Part shown: piece by piece, positions 37,155 through 51,269 of the stretch
Position numbering within the stretch: the first letter of the stretch is position 1
How the letters are laid out: the number at the start of each line of letters is the position of its first letter
Origin: a phage
Reading direction: 5' to 3' (one strand)
Sequence record: PZ445518.1
DNA length: 51,269 bases
Made by a program: the position numbers and the translations under genes
Notes under the pieces: generated by a model
Seen by the model: only the letters and a program-made list of their open reading frames with translations
The model's database searches: none
Told to the model about the DNA's origin: nothing

Positions 37155-37182
37155 TCGTTAGCTTCTCCTTTGTGGGCCGTAA

Positions 37183-38143: not shown

Positions 38144-38174
38144 CGTTTATTTCTCCTTTCGTTTCGGTGAAGTG

Positions 38175-38220
38175 ATTATGCCAGGTTTTTACACCTGGCT
38201 TTTAACAAAAAGTGCTATTT
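38175..38220 (-). promoter_or_regulatory. conserved-element promoter cassette (-10 CATAAT)
   Basis: Minus strand: AAATAGCACTTTTTGTTAAAA, 19 nt hairpin GCCAGGT..ACCTGGC, CATAAT, leader CACCGAAACGAAAGGAG. Confidence 0.55.
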
Positions 38221-38925
38221 TGAGTTTGACTCAAATACGGCGCGAGCAAATCCGCGCGGAGTGAGGGAGCGGATCATCTTTGTGCGTGATGAATTGCCGC
38301 CAGTTTTGGCCCAGCCTGGATTATCTTTGTCTTTCTCTTTCGGCAGGATTAAAGCGCGTGGAGGAATAACAAAGCCGTTGCCAGTCCAGAGGCATGTTTT
38401 CTTAAAGTAGCGATCCCGCGCCGGAATAATATCAGGGAAGTCGGGATGTTTATCATCTTCCGGCAGATAGCCAGCGTAATCGCACGGATGGAACGTATAA
38501 TCAGGCTTACGCCATAACGTTGACAACTTGCCAACCGGATTTTCGATCATGTAAGGAACACCGAAATAATCAGCTATATCAGCCGCGATTCTGCAAGTGT
38601 CGGCGGCCTCATCCTGGAACGATGGATTCTCAAGGCGTTTTTTGGCCCAATGGCGAGATCCGCTATTTGCAAGGTCGGTGCAAGGAGGGAACGCCATAAT
38701 AAAATCAGGATTGCCCCACTCATTATTGATTGCCTTAACATAAAAAGCATCATCAATCCAGACGTTAACGTATTCGATATTCTCATGCTGTATGCGCACT
38801 GACTGGTAATCACCGTGATCGCCGCCGTCAGCATTAAAGCAAATGCACTTATATCCATTATCAGCCCAATCTTTAACGGCTTTACCAGATCCATCAAATA
38901 GGGAGAATATTAAACCTTTATACAT
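38215..38925 (-). CDS. SAM-dependent DNA methyltransferase-like protein (C5-cytosine methyltransferase-type motifs)
   Basis: Ordered motifs FDGSG (motif I-like), FPPC (PC motif), IENPVG (ENV motif); only ~236 aa; stop TAG inside conserved element. Confidence 0.45.
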   Translation of the reverse strand: MYKGLIFSLFDGSGKAVKDWADNGYKCICFNADGGDHGDYQSVRIQHENIEYVNVWIDDAFYVKAINNEWGNPDFIMAFPPCTDLANSGSRHWAKKRLENPSFQDEAADTCRIAADIADYFGVPYMIENPVGKLSTLWRKPDYTFHPCDYAGYLPEDDKHPDFPDIIPARDRYFKKTCLWTGNGFVIPPRALILPKEKDKDNPGWAKTGGNSSRTKMIRSLTPRGFARAVFESNSK

Positions 38926-38935
38926 CGTCATTACC

Positions 38936-39160
38936 TCAAAACGGAAAACAGCGCGGACAACCAGGATCGAAATCGCATCCACAATCATTAACAATCATAG
39001 TGGGATCTGCAAATATTGCGCTTGATTCAAGATCCATATCCATATCACCTAAAGCCTCATCAAGACTCTTAATTTTATATGCCACTTCAAGCGCCGCCTC
39101 TTTATTTAGTCCGGCATCTTCTGCCATTTGAAGGCGCTCAAAAAATCCTTCTTGACTCAT
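38936..39160 (-). CDS. hypothetical protein (acidic, Cys-rich C-terminus)
   Basis: 74-aa ORF; C-terminal CGCDFDPGCPRC. Confidence 0.45.
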   Translation of the reverse strand: MSQEGFFERLQMAEDAGLNKEAALEVAYKIKSLDEALGDMDMDLESSAIFADPTMIVNDCGCDFDPGCPRCFPF

Positions 39161-39273
39161 CGCATAATCCCCTTAATAACAGCCAAGATAATAGCCAGGC
39201 CAGCAGCAGTAACCAAAAAGCCAACCGCGCCAATAATCGAATAAAAAAAGAAATCAATAGCCTTATCTATCAT
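39157..39273 (-). CDS. small membrane protein (38 aa)
   Basis: ATG after GAGGTGGAA; single hydrophobic helix; stop TGA overlaps next ATG; below ORF-track size cutoff. Confidence 0.3.
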   Translation of the reverse strand: MIDKAIDFFFYSIIGAVGFLVTAAGLAIILAVIKGIMR

Positions 39274-39314
39274 TTCCACCTCATTTAAAAGGCGGCAAAA
39301 CGCCGCCATATTAA

Positions 39315-39542
39315 TTAAAGAGCACGCCAGCTTTGAATATAGAAAGCGTTTTCTTCCAGTAATTCTTTTACCTGATCTTTATTGTATTTGCGCACCTTAC
39401 CGCCTGGATGGATACCAATAAGATAGCCGCCTTTGCCCTCGGTGATAGTGATTTGGCTAATTCCGCAAGACTTATCAAGTTTTACAGCCACGCGGTGATG
39501 AGCGTCAATAGTTGCCATAATGTTTAAAACTTTTACTTTCAT
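39315..39542 (-). CDS. hypothetical protein
   Basis: 75-aa ORF in leftward early operon. Confidence 0.45.
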   Translation of the reverse strand: MKVKVLNIMATIDAHHRVAVKLDKSCGISQITITEGKGGYLIGIHPGGKVRKYNKDQVKELLEENAFYIQSWRAL

Positions 39543-39650
39543 TTAAATATCCTCAATTGAAATATGAATGGCGTCGTGCTCTTTTTCCGTCGCCGCCGTA
39601 ATGGTCATTTGCAGCCGATACCATCCAGGCATTTTTGAAAATAAATAGCC

Positions 39651-39863
39651 TCATTTCTTATTTTTCATCTTAAATTTATGGCCCGGAACACCAGCGCCAA
39701 TATAGCCATCGCTGTATTCCATTAAATAAAGGTGAAGACCATTATCTGAAATTACATGAGGATCTTCTTTGAGATTTCCCATTAGTGGATATTCTTTTTC
39801 GCGCGTGAATTTCCAAATTGAGTTATAAGTTTCTACGCATTTAAGTTTTAATTGCTTTGCCAT
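39651..39863 (-). CDS. hypothetical protein
   Basis: 70-aa ORF, coupled to upstream gene. Confidence 0.45.
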   Translation of the reverse strand: MAKQLKLKCVETYNSIWKFTREKEYPLMGNLKEDPHVISDNGLHLYLMEYSDGYIGAGVPGHKFKMKNKK

Positions 39864-40060
39864 TAGATGATCTCCATGTATGTTTCAAAGCCATTTAACT
39901 TGAACAGGCCGTTTTCACATTTGCGAACGTTCCAAGTTAGCCCTGAGTGGTACGCCTCCATATCATCAAGGTCAATGGTGATTTCAGCACCTTTCTTAAA
40001 CAAACATTTTTCGTGAGACTTGTCGCGCTTAACAACTTTAACATCAACCTGATTTTCCAT
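39863..40060 (-). CDS. hypothetical protein
   Basis: 65-aa ORF with GAGGA RBS downstream of promoter cassette. Confidence 0.45.
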   Translation of the reverse strand: MENQVDVKVVKRDKSHEKCLFKKGAEITIDLDDMEAYHSGLTWNVRKCENGLFKLNGFETYMEII

Positions 40061-40091
40061 CTTTAAATCCTCGTTTGTTGTCGATGCGCTT

Positions 40092-40139
40092 ACTATACCA
40101 ATCAGCAGCGCATCGTTTTTAACAAAAAGTGCTATTTAG
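40092..40139 (-). promoter_or_regulatory. conserved-element promoter cassette (-10 TATAGT in hairpin loop)
   Basis: Minus strand: AAATAGCACTTTTTGTTAAAAA, then 8-bp stem GATGCGCT..AGCGCATC enclosing TATAGT. Confidence 0.5.
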
Positions 40140-40399
40140 TCCAGAAATTCGATTTCACGCTCTCCAGTTAACGGATCTACAAGCCAGAATCCGAGCGGTT
40201 CGCCGTGAGCACCGCCATAGAATCCAAGCGCCGTCAGATCTTCACCTTTAACGAATACAAGGTTTCCGCTAAGGCTTACGTGAGACACGTTAACGATAAC
40301 CGGAAATGTGCGATCCTTAAATGCAGGCCGCAGGGCGTAACATCCGTTATTGAGCAATCGTGCTTTGCGCTTAACTGGAATAGGTGCATTAATTTTCAT
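40136..40399 (-). CDS. hypothetical protein
   Basis: 87-aa ORF with AAGGAG RBS; stop adjacent to conserved element. Confidence 0.45.
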   Translation of the reverse strand: MKINAPIPVKRKARLLNNGCYALRPAFKDRTFPVIVNVSHVSLSGNLVFVKGEDLTALGFYGGAHGEPLGFWLVDPLTGEREIEFLD

Positions 40400-40625
40400 G
40401 GTTATTACTCCTTATCGTAAAGATTTAAAGACGTATAGTTTATTGCGGTAACTATATATCCGCATTGTTATTTCTCGCAACGCAATATATTCCTTCCTGT
40501 TTTCCGGAATCCTGGCGAGCAATAACAGGCAGTATTTATAAGCGCGGTCAAGATTCCTTTCCGTGCCCCTGCAATATCCCTTGTTGCGCCTGGAGCGGCA
40601 CAGCCATAACAATTTCTTGAACATT

Positions 40626-40859
40626 TCAGATACGCCCATACAGATCGCAAACTTCATTGATAAAACAGCGTTGAGACTCTTTATCCTGCTTCTCAAACAT
40701 CGCACGGCACTCATAGCGGTGATTATGCACGATGACAACAACCATATTTTCAGGTGCTGACGGGTGACGCGCTGACGCGTCGCAGATTGAAACATCCATA
40801 CCCATCTCATGTGCTTTCTTGATCACATCCAACATTTTTTCTTCTCCTGCAATAAGCAA
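40626..40859 (-). CDS. hypothetical protein
   Basis: 77-aa ORF with protein-like composition; competing overlapping ORFs make this region ambiguous. Confidence 0.3.
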   Translation of the reverse strand: MLIAGEEKMLDVIKKAHEMGMDVSICDASARHPSAPENMVVVIVHNHRYECRAMFEKQDKESQRCFINEVCDLYGRI

Positions 40860-41089
40860 ACATCATTGATAAAATCAGCACGGCCCTTAATGTTGCTGAT
40901 GTGGAACGTCTTTTCAGCGTACAGGCCATCACCTTCAATCACGATCATTACGCGAGTCGGTTTATTCACGGGCGCACACGAAAAGAGTGGTCGCGCCGGA
41001 AGAAATTTAGTAGCCACATCCAGGTTAGCCCTGGCGGCCCTGCAAAACGCCTCCGCCAGATCCAAATCATTTTCGGTAATCACCGCCAT
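40823..41089 (-). CDS. hypothetical protein
   Basis: 88-aa ORF, coupled to upstream gene. Confidence 0.4.
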   Translation of the reverse strand: MAVITENDLDLAEAFCRAARANLDVATKFLPARPLFSCAPVNKPTRVMIVIEGDGLYAEKTFHISNIKGRADFINDVCLLQEKKKCWM

Positions 41090-41361
41090 TACTTCTTGAT
41101 CTCCTTACTGATAAATTTCAGCACCTGGCGCAAGAAAACTTCGTTGTTGATAGTCGCTGGCAATTCTTCTTTCACTTCTTGCGGCAGATAGATATTGCCG
41201 TGCCAGGTCAAGCAATCGTAGTTGATACGATAAGAGCAAAGCCACTCGCAATCGTTATCTGCTTCCCAAATGCAGAGTTGCAGAACATCGCCAAAATCTT
41301 CAACAGTCAGATCCAGACCGTGACGCTTAGCGAAATTGAAAGTGGTTTTGCTGATGTTCAT
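41089..41361 (-). CDS. hypothetical protein (first leftward early gene)
   Basis: ATG at 41361 after AGGAG; directly downstream of promoter cassette in divergent control region. Confidence 0.5.
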   Translation of the reverse strand: MNISKTTFNFAKRHGLDLTVEDFGDVLQLCIWEADNDCEWLCSYRINYDCLTWHGNIYLPQEVKEELPATINNEVFLRQVLKFISKEIKK

Positions 41362-41396
41362 TTACTATCTCCTGAGCGGTTCGTTTCGATGTGTGT

Positions 41397-41444
41397 AATG
41401 TACCCGATCAGGCGGCCTGAGTTTTAACAAAAAGTGCTATTTGA
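41397..41444 (-). promoter_or_regulatory. conserved-element promoter cassette (-10 TACATT) for leftward early operon
   Basis: Minus strand: AAATAGCACTTTTTGTTAAAAC, 19 nt, TACATT, leader CATCGAAACGAAC. Confidence 0.5.
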
Positions 41445-41979
41445 CGGTTAGCACCAGGATTGTGATCGAAATAATCAAAAGTAATCATTCGTAATCAAAT
41501 CACGTCAAAATGATGATTGCATTTGCAAATTTGATGAGAAAAGTAATCACGTTTAATCATTGGTTGCAGGGGAGATAGTGAAACCTTCCCCTCTTGCCTC
41601 ACTTTCCCGCCTGGCTGTCAGTGGTTGTTATGTTCCGTTCCCGCCTGTTCTTTTGTTGACCTTCCGCAAAATACGATAACAAAAAATAACAAACAATACC
41701 TATATAATACATTGAAAAATAAGGATTATTTATTTATATGTATCTATATATTATCTTTTGTTATCTTGGTTATTGTGGTATTTGGTGGGGGTATATAGTT
41801 TTTGTGTATCTATATGTGTGTATGGGTATGTAGGGGCATATATATCTATATGGCACTTTCCGCGAGAAAACTTCGATAACAGCCAATGATAACATTGATT
41901 TATAAGGAAAAATAACGCCAATATTGTTATTGTGCCACCATATAAAATTGATAAAACACGCGGGAACAAGAAAAAACAG
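41445..41979. promoter_or_regulatory. AT-rich divergent control region B (candidate operator/origin region)
   Basis: About 535 bp without ORFs; GTAATCA x3, palindrome ATTTGCAAAT, TTCCCGCCTG x2, TATGT/GTATCTATAT word repeats, GGGAACAAGAAAAA box. Confidence 0.5.
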
Positions 41980-42008
41980 TTGACACATTAAATAGCATTA
42001 TTGATAAT
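41980..42008 (+). promoter_or_regulatory. sigma70-type promoter for rightward early operon
   Basis: TTGACA, 17-nt spacer, GATAAT; about 30 nt upstream of ATG 42038. Confidence 0.6.
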
Positions 42009-42037
42009 GCCGACACCTAACAACCAGGAGGTAGAAA

Positions 42038-42502
42038 ATGAGCGAGCAATCATTAACTGACACGCTGCGCCGTGCAGCTATTATGCTGGCTAATGGCGAG
42101 GAAGAGGCGATCAAGATTCCTGACGCGTATTTGCAGGTCCACATGTTCGGCAAGAAGTCGGCAAGCAATCCGGCGGCCTACATTCGCCAGATCATGAGTC
42201 GAGTTCCAGAAGTCGCCGAGCGGGGGCGCGTATCCGTTACCCGTGGAGTTTACGGGCCGGAAGATGAAAACTTCGGTAGCACTTTCTACGAGGTGCGCAT
42301 TGTTGAAGGACGTCGCAAGGTTTACAACAAAGAGGCACTGGAAAGGGCAGTACGCCAGGCTAAGCGCAAGGTTGCAGAGGCGATCATTGATATGTCACCA
42401 AACCTAGCAAACTATGCGCCGGAAGAGTATGAAACATTATCAAAGGCCGTCGCTGACTTTCACGCGATGATCAAAAAAACTTTCCTGGAGGATGAGCAAT
42501 GA
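42038..42502 (+). CDS. hypothetical protein (first rightward early gene)
   Basis: AGGAGG RBS; downstream of TTGACA-N17-GATAAT promoter. Confidence 0.5.
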   Translation: MSEQSLTDTLRRAAIMLANGEEEAIKIPDAYLQVHMFGKKSASNPAAYIRQIMSRVPEVAERGRVSVTRGVYGPEDENFGSTFYEVRIVEGRRKVYNKEALERAVRQAKRKVAEAIIDMSPNLANYAPEEYETLSKAVADFHAMIKKTFLEDEQ

Positions 42503-42771
42503 AAAAGGCGTTAATCGGTGTTTTGGTGGCAATGGCATTCCTGACCGGATGTAAAGAAGATGGCGCGCATGTTGGCAATGTGCAGATGGCTAACCCTGGC
42601 GATGACTACAACGTAAGGGAGCTATTCACCGCTGACGGATGCACTGTTTACCGATTCTATGACGATCGCACTGTTTACTTCACCAACTGCAAGGGAACTA
42701 CTAGCTGGGAAGTGTCGAAAAGCAATGGCAAAGGCACGAAGACAGAACATATGACCGTCGAGACAAAATAG
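42499..42771 (+). CDS. lipoprotein (second putative exclusion-type lipoprotein)
   Basis: Signal peptide with lipobox LTGC (MKKALIGVLVAMAFLTGC); stop TAG inside conserved element. Confidence 0.6.
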   Translation: MKKALIGVLVAMAFLTGCKEDGAHVGNVQMANPGDDYNVRELFTADGCTVYRFYDDRTVYFTNCKGTTSWEVSKSNGKGTKTEHMTVETK

Positions 42772-42811
42772 CACTTTTTGTTAAAACTCAAAAACGATAA
42801 CCAGGCATAAT
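42766..42811 (+). promoter_or_regulatory. conserved-element promoter cassette (-10 CATAAT) driving structured leader
   Basis: AAATAGCACTTTTTGTTAAAAC (contains stop TAG of lipoprotein gene), 19 nt, CATAAT. Confidence 0.55.
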
Positions 42812-43013
42812 ACACACATAGACGGGCGGCAAGGATTGCTGCGGGAGAGGAGCGACGCAGGGGCTTGATCGAAGTGTCAGGATTCCCAACCGTGAGGCCA
42901 GAACTATCACACTCGCCACCAGGCAGAACGCTAGATAGGTCACTGAACTGAGGCTACCGACGAAGTGAAGCCCGTCACCAAAGATTAAACGGTTATTTAT
43001 GTGAAAGGGGTTA
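42812..43013 (+). ncRNA. GC-rich structured leader / candidate small RNA
   Basis: About 200 nt without convincing ORF; downstream of promoter cassette; 7-bp closing stem GACGGGC (42821-42827) with GCCCGTC (42970-42976). Confidence 0.3.
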
Positions 43014-43196
43014 ATGATGGATAAGATCATCAAAATGAGCGAAGTCAAGCCGGGAATGATGGTTAAATTTGCTGGCAAATATCGCCTAGTGCTGGATAAC
43101 TGCCGCAAAGAGAACATTCTTACAATTCGTGTAAATGGCAAGGCGCAGCTATTCGCCCCTAACGCAGATATTGACGTTGAAGTTAGAATTAAGTAA
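43014..43196 (+). CDS. hypothetical protein
   Basis: 60-aa ORF after long structured leader; RBS AAAGGGG. Confidence 0.45.
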   Translation: MMDKIIKMSEVKPGMMVKFAGKYRLVLDNCRKENILTIRVNGKAQLFAPNADIDVEVRIK

Positions 43197-43211
43197 TTAG
43201 GAGAAATCACC

Positions 43212-44336
43212 ATGTTAAAACTTGCTGACATTAAATTCCCGATCACCTTCGAATCTCGCGGCATTGGTCATTACATTTTTACTGATGAAAAAACATGCCA
43301 TAAGGTTAATATGAATAGCGACAAACTAAGCCCATCAACAATGGAGATTGAACACTTTATTGATGCGCACAATACGCAGTACAACGCACTTAAAGACTAT
43401 GGCTATGCAATGCCAGGCTACACATGTTTGCACTACAAGCCATATAAAGGCCAGGTGTTGCCAGTAAAAGAGAACAAGCAATTCCTGCTGGATAGCGAGG
43501 AGATTGTATACCCGATCACCTTTGAAACGGCAGGAAATAGCGTTGTGACTTTCACATCTCGCGACAACGGCACATATGGAAACGGCTTGAGAACAAGTTA
43601 TAATGTTGATTACTTCGTCGCCTGTCATAACATGGCTAATCCTAACAACGATAAGAACAAGGTGTACTACGTGCGCGATATTGAAAGGCAGTGGCCTAAG
43701 AAAGACTCCCAGGCAGAGATTCCGATGGTTCATATGAAAACCTGCGACTACAAAAAGCTGTGGTGCTTAAGTCTGGACAATATCAAGTATCCGATCACGT
43801 TCCGCACGACTGGTAAGTCAACGATTCGCTACACATCGCGCGAAAATGGCGTTTATAGCGATGGTACGAAATCAGGGTTGAAAGTTGATTTCTTTGTCAA
43901 CGGTCACAATAGATACAATCCGCACAACGAAGAGGATAAAGTGTACTACGTGGAAGACATTACAAAACACTTATTTGGAGAAACTCCATTCGGCGGCGGT
44001 AAGACGTCAATTCAAAAAATCATTGGCGATGAGATCCACAAAGCGGCTGCCGAAATGAAAGCTCCTGGAGGCTGGCGTATTGACAAGAGCGCATTTGCAA
44101 ATCAAGAAATCGTAACGCAGGGCGCAATTGAAGATATGCCAGTTGCAGCCACTCTAAAAGGAGTCCGGCTTGATGACGGCACCTGGTATGAAGTAACGGC
44201 TACACCAAAGACGATCGAGATTCATGATGACGTTGTTATCCTTCTGCTTCACTACGGCGGCTATAAAAACCGGACGATTGCAGGTGAGATCAGCATTAAG
44301 CGCGGAACGATGATTAAGTGGAAGGTGAAGATTTGA
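43212..44336 (+). CDS. protein with three tandem ~95-aa repeats (unknown function)
   Basis: Repeat units begin IKFPITFESRG / IVYPITFETAG / IKYPITFRTTG and each ends with a ..DKVYYV(R/E)DI-type block. Confidence 0.6.
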   Translation: MLKLADIKFPITFESRGIGHYIFTDEKTCHKVNMNSDKLSPSTMEIEHFIDAHNTQYNALKDYGYAMPGYTCLHYKPYKGQVLPVKENKQFLLDSEEIVYPITFETAGNSVVTFTSRDNGTYGNGLRTSYNVDYFVACHNMANPNNDKNKVYYVRDIERQWPKKDSQAEIPMVHMKTCDYKKLWCLSLDNIKYPITFRTTGKSTIRYTSRENGVYSDGTKSGLKVDFFVNGHNRYNPHNEEDKVYYVEDITKHLFGETPFGGGKTSIQKIIGDEIHKAAAEMKAPGGWRIDKSAFANQEIVTQGAIEDMPVAATLKGVRLDDGTWYEVTATPKTIEIHDDVVILLLHYGGYKNRTIAGEISIKRGTMIKWKVKI

Positions 44337-44412
44337 GTTTGCTCACTGCGGCGCACGTCGCCGCATGGATCGGATTGTTTTCCTACCTGTTTAGCTTTTA
44401 TTGAGGTGAGAG

Positions 44413-44565
44413 ATGGCTACCTGGATTTTGCTGATTCTTATGATTGATGGCGGCGTTGACCATATCGAAATGAATAGCCAGCAATCTTGCATTGAGGCAC
44501 GAGAGCAGATCAAGAACAACAACAGTTTTTATGCGTACACTCACACGCTATGTATTAAGAAATAG
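44413..44565 (+). CDS. small hydrophobic Cys-containing protein (50 aa)
   Basis: RBS GAGGTGAGAG; stop TAG inside conserved element; paralog of 45854..46015; below ORF-track cutoff. Confidence 0.35.
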   Translation: MATWILLILMIDGGVDHIEMNSQQSCIEAREQIKNNNSFYAYTHTLCIKK

Positions 44566-44604
44566 CACTTTTTGTTAAAACTCAAATGTGGGGCCAGGTA
44601 TAAT
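44560..44604 (+). promoter_or_regulatory. conserved-element promoter cassette (-10 TATAAT)
   Basis: AAATAGCACTTTTTGTTAAAAC, 18 nt, TATAAT flanked by GGCC..GGCC. Confidence 0.6.
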
Positions 44605-44634
44605 GGCCTCACTTTCAACGAAGGAGATAAAACG

Positions 44635-44856
44635 ATGTACATTAAAAATAAGATGAAATGCGTTTCCGTTAACTATGCTTGCTCTGGCATGTTCAAGCCT
44701 GGCGAAATCTATACGGCGCAAAAACTGAAAACATCAACCGGATCTTTTTACGTGAGCAATAGTAAGGGGTATCGCATGTTCCTGAACGGCGGCGAAGGCA
44801 CTAAGGTTATGGCACACGCTATGGTAATGGCTGAATTTGAGGAAGTGAAACAATGA
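44635..44856 (+). CDS. hypothetical protein (tandem paralog of next gene)
   Basis: ATG after AAGGAGA; shares PGE-IY / YxxFLNGxxGT / AEFEEV blocks with 44853..45098. Confidence 0.5.
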   Translation: MYIKNKMKCVSVNYACSGMFKPGEIYTAQKLKTSTGSFYVSNSKGYRMFLNGGEGTKVMAHAMVMAEFEEVKQ

Positions 44857-45098
44857 TCATTGAAAACAATTTTCTTTGCGTTAAGAGCAATAGACCATTC
44901 TTCACACCTGGCAAGGTGTACCAGGGCAAGAAGGACACAAGAGATGGTCACTCTTATCATGTTCACTGCAACAACGGATACAAGTTTTACCTTAACGGCG
45001 AGAATGGAACTGAGATTGTTGCGTTTGAAAACGTAGTTGCCGAGTTCGAGCAGATTACAGACGCGGAATTTGAGGAAGTGAAAGATGAAAACAAATAA
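44853..45098 (+). CDS. hypothetical protein (tandem paralog)
   Basis: ATG overlaps upstream stop (ATGA); paralogous blocks as above. Confidence 0.5.
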   Translation: MIIENNFLCVKSNRPFFTPGKVYQGKKDTRDGHSYHVHCNNGYKFYLNGENGTEIVAFENVVAEFEQITDAEFEEVKDENK

Positions 45099-45306
45099 GC
45101 GCGTCAAGCACAGGTTTACTGATAACCACGGCGACGCGATTGATGTATACAAGTTCGGCGATCGCGTGTTTATTGATGGCACGTTTGAAGGTGGTCGTAG
45201 GCCGGATTTTAGGTCGATACTTACCGTTGACCAAGTGCGCAAGCTGGCAGATAAGTTAAATGATCTGGCAGATGAAATAGAATACAAGCAAATCCATTTT
45301 AATTGA
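45085..45306 (+). CDS. hypothetical protein
   Basis: 73-aa ORF overlapping upstream gene by 14 nt. Confidence 0.45.
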   Translation: MKTNKRVKHRFTDNHGDAIDVYKFGDRVFIDGTFEGGRRPDFRSILTVDQVRKLADKLNDLADEIEYKQIHFN

Positions 45307-45317
45307 TAGGTTTTATA

Positions 45318-45857
45318 ATGAAAAAATACACTTTCGAACTATGGGGCAAGAAGTACGAATTAATCACCAGCAAGCCGATTGTTATCGTTGACCTGGACGG
45401 CACACTATCGGACGGATCGCATCGTTTGCATTTGCTGCCAACTGAAAGCTTGCACCTTACGGAATCGTGGCGCGAGTTTAACAGGGCCGCAGCAGGAGAT
45501 TCACCGATTAAAAGCACGATCGCGATTGTTAACGGTTTGTGGGTGTCGGGATTTGCCATCGTCATCTTGACCGGACGCAGCGACGAGGTGCGCTATGAAA
45601 CCTGCAAATGGTTGAATGAGAGCGGCGTGAAGTTTGACGAAATCATCATGCGCCGCCAGGAGGACAACCGAAAGGATACGGTTATTAAAGAAGAAGCCTT
45701 GCGCGCTATTGGCCTGGACAATATTGTTTGCGCCTTTGACGATTCGCCGAACGTTGTTAAGCACTTCCGCAGCCTGGGAATCACAACCTATCAGGTCACG
45801 GAATACGACAAGCCACACGCTCACCTGCAATCTCACGGCGTGGAGTGTTTAAAATGA
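45318..45857 (+). CDS. HAD-superfamily phosphatase / nucleotidase
   Basis: HAD motif I DLDGT (IVIVDLDGTLSD), motif II ILTGRS, downstream K and DD residues. Confidence 0.65.
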   Translation: MKKYTFELWGKKYELITSKPIVIVDLDGTLSDGSHRLHLLPTESLHLTESWREFNRAAAGDSPIKSTIAIVNGLWVSGFAIVILTGRSDEVRYETCKWLNESGVKFDEIIMRRQEDNRKDTVIKEEALRAIGLDNIVCAFDDSPNVVKHFRSLGITTYQVTEYDKPHAHLQSHGVECLK

Positions 45858-46015
45858 CTTGGTTGCTTTTAATCTTTGTCACAAGTTACAACTCCGCAGC
45901 TATTGAGTCGCAGGAGTTCCACGGCGAATCAAGATGCCAGGAAGCGCGAAAGCAAGTTATTCTCCACATGTCAGATAGTGGGAAGGATGTAACAGCGTTA
46001 TGCGTTCGTAAATAG
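45854..46015 (+). CDS. small hydrophobic Cys-containing protein (53 aa)
   Basis: ATG overlaps upstream stop (ATGA); stop TAG inside conserved element; paralog of 44413..44565. Confidence 0.35.
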   Translation: MTWLLLIFVTSYNSAAIESQEFHGESRCQEARKQVILHMSDSGKDVTALCVRK

Positions 46016-46056
46016 CACTTTTTGCAAAAAACAGATCATCGGGCTTGCTGTATAGT
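46010..46056 (+). promoter_or_regulatory. conserved-element promoter cassette (-10 TATAGT in hairpin loop)
   Basis: AAATAGCACTTTTTGCAAAAAAC, stem GGGCTT..AAGCCC enclosing TATAGT, leader CATCAACAACAAACGAGGA. Confidence 0.5.
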
Positions 46057-46087
46057 AAGCCCATCAACAACAAACGAGGATTAAATC

Positions 46088-46351
46088 ATGGCTAACAAGA
46101 TCGAGTTTTTTAAAGCTGTAGACATTATCGACGGCGCGCCTAGCTTCTTTGCTATCCATTCTATTGACGGCAAGGATATTGGGTACAACGTTATCCGTCG
46201 AGATGGAATCTCAAAAATTAGTGACCTGGTAGGCCATATTGTGTCAAACGGGAAATGCGCATGGCCCGATTCGCCACGAGAGCCACGCCGCCGCGACATG
46301 GTAGAGCCTGTTCTGCTTTACACTCTGGTAGTAGAGGGAGAAAATAAATGA
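46088..46351 (+). CDS. hypothetical protein
   Basis: ATG after GAGGA, downstream of promoter cassette. Confidence 0.5.
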   Translation: MANKIEFFKAVDIIDGAPSFFAIHSIDGKDIGYNVIRRDGISKISDLVGHIVSNGKCAWPDSPREPRRRDMVEPVLLYTLVVEGENK

Positions 46352-46533
46352 TTTGGTTACTTGCTTTTTTGGTTGCTTTTCTCTACATTTCAGGCTTATT
46401 TACGTTCCGCGCTTTTGTGAAATATTCTGGCACGACAGACAAGGACGATAAAATCGTTCTCGCTTTCTGGTTTGTTTGGGTGTGGTTAGCAATTTACGAG
46501 ATCATTAGAGACAAACAGAAATTTGAGTGGTGA
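46348..46533 (+). CDS. small membrane protein (two predicted TM helices)
   Basis: Two hydrophobic stretches; start overlaps upstream stop. Confidence 0.45.
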   Translation: MIWLLAFLVAFLYISGLFTFRAFVKYSGTTDKDDKIVLAFWFVWVWLAIYEIIRDKQKFEW

Positions 46534-46592
46534 TTCTTGCTATGGCGCATTCATGCAGTGCGCCATGTTGAGAAAACCTAAAGGGGGAGACG

Positions 46593-46742
46593 ATGCGTAA
46601 CTTTGAAAAAATCATTACCAAAAAGAAGCGTCGCGGGTACGATGAGCATGTGGAGCTTGTGAAAAAGCAACGCAAGAAGCGCAACGAAGACAAGAAGCGC
46701 GGGAAAAAAATTAATGCGATTTTTCGCTATGGAGATCATTAA
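46593..46742 (+). CDS. small highly basic protein (49 aa)
   Basis: ATG after AAAGGGGGAGA; Lys/Arg-rich; stop 2 nt before kinase ATG; below ORF-track cutoff. Confidence 0.3.
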   Translation: MRNFEKIITKKKRRGYDEHVELVKKQRKKRNEDKKRGKKINAIFRYGDH

Positions 46743-46744
46743 TC

Positions 46745-47335
46745 ATGAAACGAGACATTATCATCCTTAATGGGCCGCCAGGTTGCGGGAAGGACACTAT
46801 TGCAGCTTACCTAACGGGCCATCGTTACCCAGCGGTTAATGCGTCATTCAAACAGCCGATGTTCGATATTGCGTTTTCCATGCTTGGCACGACTCGATAT
46901 GATGAGTTTATTGACCTGTACAACGACCGAGAGCAAAAAGAAAAGCCTCAAGTTATCTTAGGCGGCAAGTCACCTCGACAATTCATGATCTGGATTAGCG
47001 AGGATGTAATGAAGCCAGTCTTTGGGGAGCAGTATTTCGGGCGTCGAATGGTTGAAGAGATTAACGAGATGTACCGAGATTTGGCGGTTGTGATCAGTGA
47101 TGGCGGATTCCACGAAGAAATCAAGCCGCTTGTTAAGGCAGGGCATGAAGTGCATATTTGCCGATTGCATCGCGACGGCTTCACGTTTGCTGGCGATTCG
47201 AGAGACTACATTGACCTGAGCGGTTATCACTATCGAATCCATCACTATGACTTCCACTTGCAGGACGGCAAGCCGGAACTGGCTGTAAACGAGATCGTCA
47301 ATGCTGTCAAATGGAAGCACACACAGATTAAATAG
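46745..47335 (+). CDS. deoxynucleoside monophosphate kinase-like P-loop kinase
   Basis: P-loop GPPGCGKDT and several collinear blocks resembling T4 gp1 dNMP kinase (recalled, not searched); stop TAG inside conserved element. Confidence 0.6.
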   Translation: MKRDIIILNGPPGCGKDTIAAYLTGHRYPAVNASFKQPMFDIAFSMLGTTRYDEFIDLYNDREQKEKPQVILGGKSPRQFMIWISEDVMKPVFGEQYFGRRMVEEINEMYRDLAVVISDGGFHEEIKPLVKAGHEVHICRLHRDGFTFAGDSRDYIDLSGYHYRIHHYDFHLQDGKPELAVNEIVNAVKWKHTQIK

Positions 47336-47375
47336 CACGAATTGCTAAACGCGGGGCGCAATGCCTCGCTATAAT
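47330..47375 (+). promoter_or_regulatory. conserved-element promoter cassette (variant element; -10 TATAAT)
   Basis: AAATAGCACGAATTGCTAAAC, 19 nt, TATAAT. Confidence 0.55.
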
Positions 47376-47405
47376 GCAAACACCAATCAACGAGAGGAAA
47401 CAATC

Positions 47406-47807
47406 ATGGTGGAGTTAAACGACATTCGCGTTGGAACAAAATTTCGCGTAACCTGGGCAGATAAATATTGTGGCGTTAGCAAGGGCCAGGTTGTTGCGGT
47501 GGATAGTATTTATCGTGGTGTTAGTGGTGACTTTCGCCGTCCGCGCATCAATAATGGCTATATCATTACTCGCCGTATTGGCTTTGATAATTATTGCGTA
47601 GTGGCGACTCAAGGAGTTTTGATTGAGCTTAAGAGAATCAGCGATCATCGCGGTCGTCATGTTAAGGCAATGAAAACACCATTTCAGCGAGCGAGATACG
47701 ATGCGCGACGTATGCGCCGACTTGCGCGAAATGCGATCAAGTTCAAAAAGCCTGGCGATGATTTTTACGGCATGTATAAGGGGATTGCGCGCAATGCTGG
47801 GAAATAA
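47406..47807 (+). CDS. hypothetical protein (basic)
   Basis: ATG 47406 after GAGAGGAAA, downstream of TATAAT of promoter cassette. Confidence 0.5.
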   Translation: MVELNDIRVGTKFRVTWADKYCGVSKGQVVAVDSIYRGVSGDFRRPRINNGYIITRRIGFDNYCVVATQGVLIELKRISDHRGRHVKAMKTPFQRARYDARRMRRLARNAIKFKKPGDDFYGMYKGIARNAGK

Positions 47808-47906
47808 CAATAACGCAACGAATCCTAAGACACCTTTTGATTTTCATTCCGCAATGATTGCGGTATTATCAATGCTACTTTTTCTTTATAGCATGAGGGC
47901 GCTACT

Positions 47907-48155
47907 ATGGTTTTTAACGCATTGAAACGACTGTTTAAGCCGGAATACCGGATCGTATTTTGCCGCGACTGTTCTACTTATCATGTGCAGCGACGCAGCT
48001 TAGGCGGCAATTGGCACTATGTTACAGACGACTTTTTCGGCATCATTGCCACTGAATTTAAGTATTACAGCGATGCTTATATGTACGTCAAGAAGCGCCA
48101 CCGCTTACGCAAGTGTCGTTTTTCCGTGCTGATTCACGTTAATGATTGTTACTGA
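47907..48155 (+). CDS. hypothetical protein (Cys-containing)
   Basis: 82-aa ORF. Confidence 0.4.
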   Translation: MVFNALKRLFKPEYRIVFCRDCSTYHVQRRSLGGNWHYVTDDFFGIIATEFKYYSDAYMYVKKRHRLRKCRFSVLIHVNDCY

Positions 48156-48162
48156 GGTGAAA

Positions 48163-48345
48163 ATGAAAACTGGTATTATTATTCTTTTCCTGATTCTTTT
48201 CGGCAGTCATTTAACCATTAACTATGAGGGCATTATGGCCTTTTGGGGCAACTTGATGATGTTTGCCGCTGGTTCAATTGCTGGCTACTCTGACGGGAAA
48301 AAGGATGGTGTGCGCAAGATGCTGATGGGGCTTAAACAAAAATAA
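48163..48345 (+). CDS. small membrane protein
   Basis: ATG 48163 after GAGGTGA; two hydrophobic segments. Confidence 0.4.
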   Translation: MKTGIIILFLILFGSHLTINYEGIMAFWGNLMMFAAGSIAGYSDGKKDGVRKMLMGLKQK

Positions 48346-48356
48346 GGGGATATGAA

Positions 48357-48647
48357 ATGGCAAACAAAACTTACCGCAAACTACTGGTTAACGCTTTTGA
48401 AAACATCGCGCAGTGTAACAAGTGGAACGACTCTAAACACTCGCCAATCACAATGAAGCGCGCCGGATTCAAAAATACTCGTTCATGGGCGCGAGCTTTC
48501 GCAGCTTGCTATATGCCGGATGGCGGACTAGGGGTGATGAACGATTTTTTGATCAACATGATAGAGGAAGCGGCGCGAGAGGATCGACCGCTGACACAGC
48601 GAGATTTTGACGGCTTCGCGCGCGATGAGCTTTACTATCTGAGTTAA
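48357..48647 (+). CDS. hypothetical protein
   Basis: 96-aa ORF; stop TAA immediately followed by TAG of conserved element. Confidence 0.5.
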   Translation: MANKTYRKLLVNAFENIAQCNKWNDSKHSPITMKRAGFKNTRSWARAFAACYMPDGGLGVMNDFLINMIEEAAREDRPLTQRDFDGFARDELYYLS

Positions 48648-48690
48648 TAGCACTTTTTGTTAAAACTTCCGCAAGGGCATTTGGTAAAGT
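48645..48690 (+). promoter_or_regulatory. conserved-element promoter cassette (-10 TAAAGT in hairpin loop)
   Basis: TAATAGCACTTTTTGTTAAAAC, stem AAGGGCA..TGCCCTT enclosing TAAAGT. Confidence 0.45.
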
Positions 48691-48722
48691 GCCCTTATTG
48701 AAGCGAAACAGAGGAAAGCGCA

Positions 48723-48935
48723 ATGAAAATCAAAATCACCAAAATCGACACTATCAACGGCGACGGATCAATCACTCTTGAGCAATGTGGCTTGGTTGTT
48801 GGTGATGTGCTGGAAGTTGACGGACATTTCAGCGACGGATCTTATTGTGTTATTGCGCCGCGCAACAGCGAGTTTATCAAGGCTGGCGACAATATTAGTG
48901 TTAACCATGACGAATGCGAGGTAGTAGAAGAATGA
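48723..48935 (+). CDS. hypothetical protein
   Basis: 70-aa ORF downstream of promoter cassette. Confidence 0.45.
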   Translation: MKIKITKIDTINGDGSITLEQCGLVVGDVLEVDGHFSDGSYCVIAPRNSEFIKAGDNISVNHDECEVVEE

Positions 48936-49165
48936 TCACGATTAACCTTTCAGAGAAGCAAGCATATCAAGTGATGCGCTACATTTCTGGCTTTGGTATG
49001 GAAGGCGCTATGGGTGAAGTTGCGGATCAGATTTGCCGTCAACTTACACCAGCACCAACGCGAGCGGCAGAAACTGCCGCATGGCGCAACGAGGCTGGAT
49101 ACATCCAGAAAGCTATTGAAGACTGGAAGCGCATAAACGAGACTATGGAGGAATCAGGTTTATGA
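48932..49165 (+). CDS. hypothetical protein
   Basis: ATG overlaps upstream stop (ATGA). Confidence 0.45.
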   Translation: MITINLSEKQAYQVMRYISGFGMEGAMGEVADQICRQLTPAPTRAAETAAWRNEAGYIQKAIEDWKRINETMEESGL

Positions 49166-49476
49166 TTTATATTCACTACTACCAAATCGGAACTAACGAG
49201 AACAAGAAAGAGCATCGTTTCATCCATGATGATTTGGACAAGGCAAAGGCACAGCAACAGGTTTTAGGCGGTGTCATTCAGGCTTTTGAGCCTGTAGAAG
49301 ATATTGAGTACCGCGAGCATTTAAAAGATGTTGTTATTGATGAGATCTCTTGCTTGATTGATGATATGACAAATCACGGCCCTGGTTCACCGTGGGAAGA
49401 TGCAGGATCTGTAACGTGGGATAAGGCCAAAGTTAAGACGCTAAACAACTTTCGAGAGATTCTCGACGGTTTTTAA
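49162..49476 (+). CDS. hypothetical protein
   Basis: 104-aa ORF, start overlaps upstream stop. Confidence 0.5.
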   Translation: MIYIHYYQIGTNENKKEHRFIHDDLDKAKAQQQVLGGVIQAFEPVEDIEYREHLKDVVIDEISCLIDDMTNHGPGSPWEDAGSVTWDKAKVKTLNNFREILDGF

Positions 49477-49537
49477 TTAAAAACGCATAGCCGTTAGAGC
49501 GCCTAAATCGCATTCTAACGAGCTATTTTTCTGGTAA

Positions 49538-49675
49538 GGTGATTTAATGGATGAGTACAAACAACCCTCGCAATGGTGCAAAGAGAAGCAGGAGGAAGCA
49601 CTTGAGCGCGGAGATGTAGAAGAAGCTATGAACTATTTCAAACTTGCGGAAGAATGGAAGGGGAGAGGATACTGA
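49538..49675 (+). CDS. small acidic protein (45 aa)
   Basis: ATG 49538; stop TGA overlaps ATG of next ORF; below ORF-track cutoff. Confidence 0.3.
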   Translation, partial: GDLMDEYKQPSQWCKEKQEEALERGDVEEAMNYFKLAEEWKGRGY

Positions 49676-49905
49676 TGTTCGGCATGAACGAGGCGCAATT
49701 CAACGCAGCTAAACGCCAGGCTAAAAAGTGCGGCGAGGCAATGAAAGCGGATGTGGAAAAGCGCGGGAAGTATGTTGATGAAGTAATGAAGGGAATCATT
49801 GCAGAACACTACCAGCCAATCGCGCCAATGTTGACGATCACTCAATTCATTTGGCTATGTGGTTACTTGCGCGGACGTTGGGGGAACGCTTTCGACAGGG
49901 AATGA
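49675..49905 (+). CDS. hypothetical protein
   Basis: Internal ATG of ORF 49654..49905 coupled to upstream stop. Confidence 0.45.
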   Translation: MFGMNEAQFNAAKRQAKKCGEAMKADVEKRGKYVDEVMKGIIAEHYQPIAPMLTITQFIWLCGYLRGRWGNAFDRE

Positions 49906-49934
49906 TTGACAACTCTTTCCTGATTGGTTAGCAT
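49906..49934 (+). promoter_or_regulatory. sigma70-type promoter
   Basis: TTGACA, 17-nt spacer, TAGCAT, directly after stop of 49675..49905. Confidence 0.45.
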
Positions 49935-50067
49935 GGCGTCGTTTACATAAGAGCGGCTTTGTCCGAACGCGTGACGCGATAGTCACACAACAACGGCGAT
50001 ATGCAGGAGGTTTTTGCAATGCAAAATAATCCGTAAGACGTATCGCCTTTTTTAATGGAGATCCAAA

Positions 50068-50301
50068 ATGATTAAATACAAATTAACCGTTTCTTTCCGT
50101 GATACCGTTATTCATCCTTTCTACAATAGCTTTGTTAACAGCTTTACAGTAGAAGCGACAAGTGATCAGCTTGACGGTGACGAAACTTGCATTTCTATCG
50201 GCAATGTTGCTTATCCGATTCACAACATTACCAGCATTAAGCGTGAGGTTGTCGCTGATGAATTACAAAGTGAAGATGACGATCCGGCGAATGGGGCGTA
50301 A
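50068..50301 (+). CDS. hypothetical protein (acidic C-terminus)
   Basis: 77-aa ORF after GGAG, downstream of promoter 49906-49934. Confidence 0.45.
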   Translation: MIKYKLTVSFRDTVIHPFYNSFVNSFTVEATSDQLDGDETCISIGNVAYPIHNITSIKREVVADELQSEDDDPANGA

Positions 50302-50439
50302 CTGCCAATCATGCAAACAGGAATATGAATGCGTAGTCGATGCTCTTGATGAACTGGAAGCAGTAGCAAAAGCAAAAGAGCAATCGGGCGCTAATCCTGA
50401 AACACATCAATTTTCAATTAATCTTGTGAGGGCTTTACA

Positions 50440-50664
50440 ATGATCGCATTATCTTTCTGCATTGGTTTTATCATGGCTATCATTATCTTTTCCGTTGTCA
50501 TGCGCTTTGCTTATAAGTTCGTGATTAATAAAGGTTGGTACGCTTCTGCCATCTGGAGCGAAAAACAAAAGAAATGGCTTGTACGTGGTCAATACCTGAT
50601 GATCGGCAGCAAGATCCTAAATTCCATTCGAGCCAAAGATGGAAAAGTAAAATATACAGCTTAA
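50440..50664 (+). CDS. small membrane protein
   Basis: N-terminal hydrophobic helix; followed by strong terminator. Confidence 0.45.
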   Translation: MIALSFCIGFIMAIIIFSVVMRFAYKFVINKGWYASAIWSEKQKKWLVRGQYLMIGSKILNSIRAKDGKVKYTA

Positions 50665-50692
50665 AAATTACCCGCCGCACGGCGGGTTTTTT
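50663..50692 (+). terminator. rho-independent terminator before terS
   Basis: ACCCGCCG cac GGCGGGT followed by TTTTTTATT. Confidence 0.7.
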
Positions 50693-50705
50693 ATTGCCAG
50701 TTGTT

Positions 50706-50714
50706 TGGTATAAT
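50706..50714 (+). promoter_or_regulatory. extended -10 promoter for terS-terL
   Basis: TGgTATAAT between terminator 50663-50692 and terS RBS. Confidence 0.45.
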
Positions 50715-50742
50715 CAGGCATCTAACCAAAGGAGGATTAACA

Positions 50743-51269
50743 ATGGCTAAAAACGTTGAGCCTGCTGTAAAGGCATTAAATTTCAAAGAGTTATATAATA
50801 AAACTTATGGCGATATTGTCACGCTAAACAACCGCCACAAGTACACGCCGGAACAGGTTTTTGATATGGCGATCCGCTATTTCACTTGGGCAGAAGAGAA
50901 TCACATCCAGGCGGCTGAAACTGCTTCCTTTCAGGGTGACGTGTACGAGAGCAGAGTTTACAAGCCTCGCGTTTTCACGGTTAACGGATTCAGCTTGTAT
51001 CTCGGCGTGACTGAGGCTGCCGTAAGCAAATGGCGTAAAGAGCCTGGATTCTGCGATGTGATGGAGTTTGTTGATAAAGTAATTTACGAGCAAAAATTCC
51101 AGCTTGCGGCAAATAACATGATTAATGCTGGATTTATCGGTAAAGAGATCGGCGTAGAGAAGCCAGCAACAGTGAGCGTTGAAGCTAGCGCGGCAGCTAA
51201 TGCAAGCATTGACGCAGTAACTGCCGATGAGGTGAAAGAGGCTGTTATTGATATTCTGGAGCAACTTTA
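50743..51269 (+). CDS. terS: terminase small subunit (runs to window edge; stop completed by base 1)
   Basis: RBS AAAGGAGG; HTH-like TVNGFSLYLGVTEAAVSKWRK; directly upstream of terL across the window junction. Confidence 0.7.
   Translation, partial: MAKNVEPAVKALNFKELYNKTYGDIVTLNNRHKYTPEQVFDMAIRYFTWAEENHIQAAETASFQGDVYESRVYKPRVFTVNGFSLYLGVTEAAVSKWRKEPGFCDVMEFVDKVIYEQKFQLAANNMINAGFIGKEIGVEKPATVSVEASAAANASIDAVTADEVKEAVIDILEQL

What the first reader, a model, noticed from the sequence alone, without database searches (positions are those of the whole stretch)
50743..51269. terS reading frame is closed by base 1 of the window, so the window is a full unit genome linearised at the terL ATG
terS is open through 51267 (last codon CTT) and the final two bases TA plus base 1 (A of the terL ATG) form TAA, giving the overlap TAATG. 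That is the same stop/start coupling seen between other gene pairs here. It implies the sequence is circularly permuted or terminally redundant and was opened at terL, that terL is complete, and that terS is about 175 aa.
Basis: inference. Interest (0 to 1): 0.45.

Follow-up and report, generated by a model that had tools for sequence, protein, structure and literature searches.

The report
Phage genome opened at terL start
The window is the complete genome of the T1-like coliphage JK16, cut open for display at the first base of its large terminase gene, so the neighbouring small terminase gene only appears to lose the last base of its stop codon; this is an ordinary bookkeeping effect, not new biology.

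Summary
An ORF starts at ATG 50743 and stays open for 175 codons to 51267. The last two bases (TA) plus base 1 (A) form TAA, which overlaps the ATG of a 522-aa ORF (1..1569) as TAATG.

The window is 100% identical to Shigella phage JK16 (NC_049814; Drexlerviridae, Warwickvirus), rotated. In that record, which is opened elsewhere, the sequence runs straight across the 51269/1 joint. RefSeq annotates terS 24559..25086 and terL 25086..26654, a one-base overlap. Fifty-one related phage records and one metagenome contig also cross the joint without a break. Six public Warwickvirus records are opened at the same base. In the one I inspected, terS is demoted to a stop-less misc_feature.

Both proteins are full length. 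TerS is a homologue of P22 gp3. The real virion ends are not at the joint. Relatives use pac-type headful packaging, and the pac-equivalent region is the divergent untranslated region at 41362..42037, about 9 kb upstream of terS.

There is one caveat. The GenBank JK16 record has a perfect 585-bp tandem duplication (window 41636..42220) that the window and its relatives lack. It is probably an assembly artefact.

Verdict: already known, low interest.

The parts
50743..51269 (+). terS (small terminase subunit), 175 codons plus the first two bases (TA) of its TAA stop. The third base of the stop is window base 1.
   Evidence: Translation. Pfam PF16677 GP3_package E=3.8e-11, 43.5 bits against a cutoff of 29.4. 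phrog_606 E=2.3e-53, covering residues 7-174. PDB 3P9A (P22 gp3) E=1.7e-15. RefSeq CDS 24559..25086 in NC_049814.
1..1569 (+). terL (large terminase subunit), 522 aa, complete. Its ATG shares base 1 with the terS stop codon.
   Evidence: ORF list. phrog_38 E=3.1e-107; Terminase_6C E=8.6e-11, above cutoff. The upstream in-frame stop is 7 codons before ATG 1 with no other start codon between. The N-terminus aligns with TLS and T1 TerL. RefSeq CDS 25086..26654.
51258..51261 (+). GGAG Shine-Dalgarno-like element for terL, inside the 3' end of terS, 8 nt before the ATG.
   Evidence: Read directly from the sequence...CTGGAGCAACTTTAATG. Its function is inferred.
50730..50735 (+). AGGAGG ribosome-binding site of terS, 7 nt before ATG 50743.
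   Evidence: Read directly from the sequence.
50670..50693 (+). Intrinsic-terminator-like hairpin (ACCCGCCGCACGGCGGGT followed by TTTTTT) that closes the early small-ORF cluster just upstream of terS. T1 has an annotated terminator in the same place.
   Evidence: Terminator scan. T1 annotation: terminator 8322..8344 before terS 8396.
41362..42037 (.). Divergent untranslated region between the leftward and rightward early genes. It is the syntenic equivalent of the mapped pac / left-end region of TLS and of the T1 record break, and so the most likely site of packaging initiation. It lies about 9 kb upstream of terS, not at the window joint.
   Evidence: The TLS record starts at its assigned pac (AGATTT at position 1; HindIII at 5876 and EcoRV at 2733 match the paper). 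TLS gp01 is a homologue of window ORF 42038..42502, 29% identity, E=2e-17. In SU57 the likely genome end was placed in a UTR by PhageTerm and a change in read frequency; its pac site itself was not identified, and the authors state that pac lies in the corresponding region in T1 and other T1-like phages. The densest TGATT/AATCA cluster in the window is at 41469..41588. Location is by inference only.
41636..42220 (+). 585-bp segment that is tandemly duplicated in the GenBank/RefSeq JK16 record (14867..15453 = 15452..16038) but present once in the window.
   Evidence: blastn of the window against JK16 and of JK16 against itself. Single copy in 14 relatives and in IMG/VR contig L010.

Best explanation
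The window is the complete, non-redundant genome sequence of Shigella/Escherichia phage JK16 (Drexlerviridae, Tempevirinae, Warwickvirus). It is treated as a circle and re-linearised so that base 1 is the A of the terL start codon, a common annotation convention. In this genus terS and terL overlap by one base (TAATG), so cutting at the terL ATG removes the last base of the terS stop codon. terS then appears to run off the end of the record.

Biologically, the overlap is an ordinary stop/start junction. A ribosome that terminates terS at TAA sits on the terL ATG, with a GGAG 8 nt upstream, so the two terminase subunits are probably translationally coupled (inferred).

The joint is not a physical DNA end. 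Like T1 and TLS, the phage most likely packages concatemers by the headful mechanism from a pac site in the divergent untranslated region near 41.4-42.0 kb. That would give partially permuted, terminally redundant virion DNA, which assembles as a circle (inferred from relatives).
For: Shown here:
- The window equals JK16 at 100% identity, rotated, with window base 1 = JK16 25086.
- JK16 and 50 other records opened elsewhere are continuous across the joint, as is an independent IMG/VR contig.
- RefSeq annotates terS 24559..25086 and terL 25086..26654.
- TerS and TerL identities rest on Pfam, PHROG and PDB matches.
- Their termini align with T1 and TLS orthologues, and ATG 1 is the first start codon in the ORF.
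- Nine RefSeq gene pairs use the same one-base overlap.
- Six public Warwickvirus records (OR896819, OR896828, OR896836, OR896827, OR896823, OR912983) start at the same base, and four of them are shown to end at the terS TA. In the one inspected, OR896819, terS is reduced to a 525-nt misc_feature 'similar to terminase small subunit'.
- The window has no terminal repeat of 8 nt or more.

From the literature:
- Starting phage genomes at terL is a convention implemented in Dnaapler (PMC11783317).
- TLS packages by pac-initiated headful packaging with about 1 kb redundancy (PMC11447400).
- T1-like genomes are circularly permuted (PMC7718038).
- A Warwickvirus was scored 'Headful (pac)' (PMC13507304).
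Against: No reads or virion-end data for JK16 were available, so the packaging mode and pac position rest on homology and synteny only. The GenBank record is 585 bp longer than the window, so the unit genome length is 51,269 bp only if that duplication is an artefact. Translational coupling is inferred from the geometry, and T1 and TLS keep the two genes 24 and 11 nt apart, so the overlap is not required in the family. I could not establish who rotated the sequence or with what tool.
Confidence: 0.94

Rival explanations
1. The window is not the full unit genome. The 585-bp tandem duplication in the GenBank JK16 record (window 41636..42220 twice) is real, the true unit is 51,854 bp, and the window has collapsed it.
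For: The deposited record carries two perfect copies. Tandem duplications do arise in phages.
Against: Fourteen relatives that share this stretch at 97-98% identity have one copy, and so does the IMG/VR contig. The two copies are 587/587 identical. The duplication produces a truncated duplicate ORF: gp29 at 15269..15475 has the same start as gp30 at 15854, offset by exactly 585. JK16 was assembled with the overlap assembler MIRA from 2x250 reads and the record was evidently rotated by hand to a gene boundary, since position 1 is the end of the primase CDS. That is how an untrimmed contig-end overlap becomes an internal tandem repeat (inference).
Confidence: 0.1
2. The pac site lies in or next to terS, as in P22 where pac is inside gene 3. 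The window would then be opened close to the real first-headful end, not at an arbitrary point.
For: TerS is a clear homologue of P22 gp3. The 8-mer GAAGATTT, the core of the P22 pac sequence, occurs at window 13..20.
Against: The full 22-nt P22 pac has no match with up to 3 mismatches. GAAGATTT occurs 3 times against 3.4 expected by chance. At 13..20 it simply encodes the conserved TerL residues W-E-D-L shared with TLS and T1. In TLS the pac end was mapped by restriction analysis about 8.8 kb upstream of terS, and the record coordinates of the HindIII and EcoRV sites agree. The T1 record break and the most likely SU57 genome end lie in the same left-end untranslated region.
Confidence: 0.04
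3. The joint is a true physical end (a cos site or DTR boundary between terS and terL), or sequence such as an inserted gene is missing between 51269 and 1.
For: Some Warwickviruses do carry an extra gene exactly here: BEK12A and BEK26 have a 163-aa homing endonuclease gene between terS and terL. Some phages also place cos next to the terminase genes.
Against: The JK16 record itself, 100% identical to the window, is continuous across the joint with no insertion. A fixed end at that position would cut through the terS stop codon and the terL start codon. Relatives are headful packagers.
Confidence: 0.01

Closest known systems
Shigella phage JK16 (MK962751.1 / NC_049814.1; Warwickvirus JK16)
   Same: 100% nucleotide identity over all 51,269 bases, with the same gene order and the same terS/terL one-base overlap.
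   Different: The record is opened at the end of the primase gene, whereas the window is opened at the terL ATG. The record also carries a second tandem copy of a 585-bp segment (window 41636..42220) that the window lacks.
Citizen Phage Library Warwickvirus record OR896819 (ExeQuayColi), with OR896836, OR896828, OR896827, OR896823 and also OR912983
   Same: These records are linearised at exactly the same base (the terL ATG is position 1). Searches show OR896819, OR896836, OR896828, OR896823 and OR912983 ending on the terS ...CTTTA. They are about 98-99% identical to the window in the regions compared.
   Different: They are different isolates. In OR896819, the only one whose annotation I read, the stop-less terS is annotated only as a misc_feature 'similar to terminase small subunit'. 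This shows the practical cost of the convention.
Escherichia phages TLS (AY308796) and T1 (AY216660), the reference T1-like phages
   Same: The layout is the same: a left-end untranslated region, about 8.4-8.8 kb of small early ORFs, a terminator, then terS, terL and portal. TerS is 174-175 aa and TerL 522-527 aa, and they align end to end. Packaging by the headful (pac) mechanism is published for TLS.
   Different: Their records are opened at or near the pac end, not at terL. terS and terL are separated by 11 nt (TLS) or 24 nt (T1) and do not overlap. Nucleotide similarity in the pac-region UTR is only patchy.
P22 gp3 small terminase (PDB 3P9A; Pfam PF16677)
   Same: Sequence homologue of the window's TerS: E=1.7e-15 over residues 34-144, with the Pfam score above the gathering threshold.
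   Different: The P22 pac site lies inside gene 3. No P22-like pac sequence is detectable in or near the window's terS, and relatives place pac about 9 kb upstream.

Membership tests
Warwickvirus JK16 genome (Drexlerviridae; Tempevirinae) | Whole-genome nucleotide identity and collinearity with the exemplar NC_049814.1 | tested here: met
   Three collinear blastn blocks cover every window base at 100% identity. The only difference is one copy against two of a 585-bp segment. Taxonomy line.
Small terminase, P22 gp3 type (Pfam PF16677 GP3_package / phrog_606) | Profile match above the curated threshold over the full domain | tested here: met
   PF16677 43.5 bits against a 29.4 cutoff, residues 33-132. 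phrog_606 E=2.3e-53, residues 7-174 of 175. PDB 3P9A E=1.7e-15.
Small terminase, P22 gp3 type | Binds a pac sequence and recruits TerL | not testable with these tools
   No binding data. The pac sequence of this genus is unknown. No P22 pac motif was found.
Large terminase (phrog_38; Terminase_6C nuclease domain) | N-terminal ATPase with a Walker A motif plus a C-terminal RNaseH-like nuclease domain, full length | tested here: met
   phrog_38 E=3.1e-107 over residues 4-509. Terminase_6C 42.5 bits against a 22.6 cutoff, residues 409-500. A P-loop-like TPGSGKTE is visible in the alignment. No PDB sequence hit at E<=0.01.
pac-type headful packaging with partial circular permutation and terminal redundancy (T1/TLS type) | Sequence assembles as a circle, with no fixed terminal repeat or cohesive end in the record | tested here: met
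   The window ends share no repeat of 8 nt or more. The joined ends recreate a sequence found uninterrupted in 51 records opened at many different points.
pac-type headful packaging with partial circular permutation and terminal redundancy (T1/TLS type) | Submolar pac fragment, or a read-start peak with directional decay, in virion DNA | not testable with these tools
   No reads or digests of JK16. Support comes from relatives only: TLS restriction mapping, SU57, and Warwickvirus vB_EcoS-149_6D scored 'Headful (pac)' by PhageTermVirome.
Translationally coupled overlapping gene pair (stop/start overlap) | The stop codon of the upstream gene overlaps the start codon of the downstream gene, with a Shine-Dalgarno-like element 5-10 nt upstream | tested here: met
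   TAATG at 51268..51269 plus 1..3, and GGAG at 51258..51261 with an 8-nt spacer. The same geometry occurs at 8 other RefSeq gene pairs.
Translationally coupled overlapping gene pair (stop/start overlap) | terL translation depends on terS translation | not testable with these tools
   This needs reporter fusions or terS nonsense mutants.

The most novel reading that the evidence does not exclude
The divergent untranslated region about 9 kb upstream of terS holds the still undefined pac site of Warwickviruses. The exceptional cluster of TGATT/AATCA motifs at 41469..41588 (7 in 120 nt against a window mean of 0.6) would be the TerS recognition array. The TLS pac assignment aligns weakly to about 41527. 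The left edge of the 585-bp duplicated block in the JK16 record (41636) would then mark where pac-cut molecules begin, so the GenBank 'duplication' would be a fossil of the first-headful end and not a random assembly overlap.
Probability: 0.2. Interest if true: 0.2.

Novelty: already known. Interest (0 to 1): 0.05.

Why it matters
It matters mainly as quality control. The window can be treated as a complete circularised phage genome with intact terS (175 aa) and terL (522 aa), and no biology should be read into the 51269/1 break.

It also shows a small practical pitfall. Rotating phage genomes to the terL ATG removes the terS stop codon whenever the two genes overlap. In at least one public Warwickvirus record (OR896819) this has turned terS into a non-coding misc_feature. 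Rotating to the terS start, or to the pac-region UTR as in T1 and TLS, avoids the problem.

The comparison also flags a probable 585-bp assembly artefact in the RefSeq exemplar of Warwickvirus JK16.

Tried and rejected
(1) P22-type pac at the joint. TerS is a P22 gp3 homologue and GAAGATTT sits at 13..20. However, the 22-nt P22 pac has no match with up to 3 mismatches, and the 8-mer occurs 3 times against 3.4 expected and encodes the conserved WEDL of TerL. Rejected as a signal.

(2) Direct nucleotide homology between the T1 or TLS record ends and the window UTR. blastn with word size 7 gave only 18-35-nt hits at E of about 1e-3, most of them to the dispersed 21-nt repeat. A MAFFT alignment is only patchy. 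It is usable as a hint, not as a mapping.

(3) Terminal repeat between the window ends: none of 8 nt or more.

(4) An alternative upstream terL start: none, because an in-frame stop lies 7 codons upstream.

(5) PDB sequence search for TerL: no hit at E<=0.01. I did not pursue structure prediction because the PHROG and Pfam identification is unambiguous.

(6) Looking for how the six terL-started records were rotated. The Citizen Phage Library paper mentions Pharokka but not reorientation, so the tool used is inferred, not shown.

(7) The sigma-70 scan around terS found nothing above shuffled expectation on the + strand.

Full report
**Observation**

The last 527 bases of the window start with ATG at 50743, preceded by AGGAGG at 50730..50735. 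They translate to 175 sense codons ending ...ILEQL, with CTT at 51265..51267. The remaining two bases are TA. Joined to base 1 (A) they give TAA, and that A is also the first base of the ATG of ORF 1..1569, which is 522 aa.

**What the window is**

A megablast of the last 1.5 kb and of the first 25 kb against GenBank phages gives 100% identity to Shigella phage JK16 (MK962751.1 / NC_049814.1; 51,854 bp; Drexlerviridae, Tempevirinae, Warwickvirus). A full comparison gives three collinear blocks, all at 100% identity:

| Window | JK16 record |
|---|---|
| 1..26769 | 25086..51854 |
| 26770..42222 | 1..15453 |
| 41636..51269 | 15452..25085 |

The window is therefore the JK16 sequence rotated so that base 1 is record position 25086.

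**Is anything missing at the joint?**

I built an artificial 422-nt sequence from window 51109..51269 followed by 1..261 and searched it against the phage collection.

- It is found uninterrupted in one piece in 51 records, 18 of them at 100% identity. These include JK16 itself at 24925..25346, in records opened at many different places.
- RefSeq annotates JK16 terS at 24559..25086 and terL at 25086..26654, the same one-base overlap.
- An exact 44-mer across the joint also occurs in an independent metagenome-derived contig, IMGVR_UViG_3300018479_000051. That contig runs collinearly from window-equivalent 40661 through 51269 into 1..2408.

So there is no extra sequence between 51269 and 1.

*terS*
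- Matches Pfam GP3_package above the gathering score.
- Matches phrog_606 'terminase small subunit' over residues 7-174.
- Matches the P22 gp3 chain 3P9A at E=1.7e-15.

*terL*
- Matches phrog_38 at E=3e-107 and carries the Terminase_6C nuclease domain.

Aligned with the T1 and TLS orthologues, TerS ends at the homologous C-terminal residue and TerL begins at the homologous MI/LIWEDL. On the circular molecule an in-frame stop lies 7 codons upstream of ATG 1 with no other start codon in between. terS is therefore 175 aa and terL is a complete 522 aa.

**The overlap itself**

Among 78 same-strand neighbouring CDS pairs in the RefSeq annotation, nine have a one-base overlap (eight TAATG, one TGATG) and twelve have the four-base overlap (ATGA type). 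The terS/terL junction is therefore typical of this genome.

A GGAG lies 8 nt upstream of the terL ATG, inside terS. The likely mechanism is ordinary termination-reinitiation coupling, which would tie TerL synthesis to TerS synthesis. This is inferred from geometry only.

The overlap is not universal in the family:
- T1 and TLS separate the genes by 24 and 11 nt.
- Two Warwickviruses, BEK12A and BEK26, have a 163-aa homing endonuclease gene inserted exactly at the joint, again started by a TAATG overlap with terS.

**Why the sequence is opened here**

Six public Warwickvirus records begin at precisely the same base: OR896819, OR896836, OR896828, OR896827, OR896823 and OR912983. Searches show five of them (all except OR896827) ending on the terS ...CTTTA.

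In OR896819, the one record whose annotation I read, terL is CDS 1..1569. terS is only a misc_feature at 50732..51256, 'similar to terminase small subunit': 525 nt with no stop.

Starting phage genomes at terL is a documented convention, implemented for example in Dnaapler (PMC11783317). Other records of the genus start at the terS ATG (record_from 367). The break is thus a bookkeeping choice. I could not determine who rotated this particular sequence.

**Where the real ends probably are**

Published evidence on relatives:
- TLS, in the same subfamily, packages by a pac-initiated headful mechanism with about 1 kb of redundancy and 3-4 headfuls per concatemer (PMC11447400).
- The TLS record starts at the assigned pac (AGATTT at position 1). 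Its first HindIII site (5876) and EcoRV site (2733) match the mapped fragments.
- T1-like genomes are described as circularly permuted. [quoted passage not shown] Its pac site was not identified, but the authors say pac lies in the corresponding region in T1 and other T1-like phages (PMC7718038).
- A Warwickvirus of the AV105 species was scored 'Headful (pac)' by PhageTermVirome (PMC13507304).

Mapping this onto the window:
- TLS gp01 is homologous to window ORF 42038..42502, at 29% identity and E=2e-17.
- In T1 and TLS, terS lies 8.4-8.8 kb from the left end and, in T1, follows an annotated terminator. The window has the same layout, with a terminator-like hairpin at 50670..50687.
- The pac-equivalent region of the window is therefore the divergent untranslated region 41362..42037, about 9 kb upstream of terS.
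- Within it, 41469..41588 has the densest TGATT/AATCA cluster of the whole window (7 against a mean of 0.6 per 120 nt). A weak alignment puts TLS position 1 near 41527.

This localisation is an inference. No reads were available.

I tested and rejected a P22-like pac at or in terS. The 22-mer has no match. The 8-mer core occurs at the chance rate, and at 13..20 it simply encodes the conserved WEDL.

**The one discrepancy**

The GenBank JK16 record is 585 bp longer than the window. Record positions 14867..15453 and 15452..16038 are identical, a perfect tandem duplication of window 41636..42220 with a 2-bp CG junction. Several points suggest it is an artefact:

- Fourteen relatives that share this stretch at 97-98% identity have one copy, and so does the IMG/VR contig.
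- The duplication creates a truncated duplicate ORF: gp29 starts exactly 585 bp before gp30.
- JK16 was assembled with MIRA 4.0.2 from 2x250 reads (PMC6832132).
- The record starts exactly at the end of the primase CDS, which implies manual rotation.

The simplest reading is that an untrimmed contig-end overlap became internal when the record was rotated (inference, about 0.9). If so, the window's 51,269 bp is the correct unit length.

The overlap sits in the pac-region UTR. That may be coincidence, since the region contains low-complexity AT-rich sequence, or it may reflect pac-cut ends. Only the reads can decide.

**Verdict**

The feature is a linearisation artefact on a known, already annotated phage genome, combined with an ordinary one-base stop/start overlap between the terminase genes.

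- Novelty: already known.
- Interest: low.
- Useful by-products: the note that terL-anchored rotation breaks terS annotation in this genus, and the probable 585-bp artefact in the RefSeq exemplar.

Noticed in passing
window 41636..42220 (JK16 record 14867..16038): The GenBank/RefSeq JK16 record has a perfect 585-bp tandem duplication of this segment that the otherwise identical window lacks. Relatives and an IMG/VR contig have one copy. It creates a spurious truncated ORF (gp29). It is probably an untrimmed MIRA contig overlap that became internal when the record was rotated.
   Followed up: partly
window, + orientation at 6185, 9939, 20717, 35040, 37202, 38194, 40111, 41416; reverse complement at 26677, 28240, 30728, 31799, 42764, 44558, 46008, 47328, 48643: A dispersed family of about 21-nt intergenic repeats, TTTTAACAAAAAGTGCTATTT, with at least 17 copies. 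It resembles the '18 intergenic 21-base repeats' reported for TLS. The T1 record ends carry AGCAAAAAGTGCTAT as well. Its function (promoter or regulator site) is unknown.
   Followed up: no
window 41469..41588: The highest density of TGATT/AATCA motifs in the genome (7 in 120 nt against a mean of 0.6), including four GTAATCA. It lies in the divergent UTR and weakly aligns to the TLS and T1 record ends. It is a candidate pac or regulatory array.
   Followed up: partly
window 41700..41860 and 20864..20924: A very AT-rich stretch (14-38% GC) with three TATCTATAT copies (41736, 41802, 41838), flanked by TTCCGC...CGATAAC repeats (41659, 41853). A 61-nt stretch that is 70% similar lies in the other divergent intergenic region, at 20.9 kb.
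   Followed up: no
L009 (Escherichia phage BEK12A MN158210) 528..1019; equivalent to the window 51269/1 joint: In BEK12A and BEK26 a 163-aa homing endonuclease gene is inserted exactly between terS and terL. It starts on the same TAATG overlap and overlaps terL by 35 nt. The joint can evidently host a mobile-element insertion in this genus.
   Followed up: partly
L007/L008 (OR896819 ExeQuayColi) 50732..51256 and 1..1569: This public record is opened at the terL ATG, so terS has no stop codon and is annotated only as a misc_feature 'similar to terminase small subunit', with no protein record. Five further records (OR896836, OR896828, OR896827, OR896823, OR912983) are opened at the same base; one search lists 'similar to terminase small subunit' under the match for OR896828, OR896836 and OR896823 as well.
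   Followed up: yes
window 26040..26186 (inside minus-strand ORF 24708..26687) and 18571..18946 (inside ORF 15847..19476): In-frame periodic repeats (21/42-nt and roughly 100-130-nt spacing) lie inside the two large tail protein genes (families D6 and D9). They are probably repeated structural motifs of tail fibre proteins.
   Followed up: no
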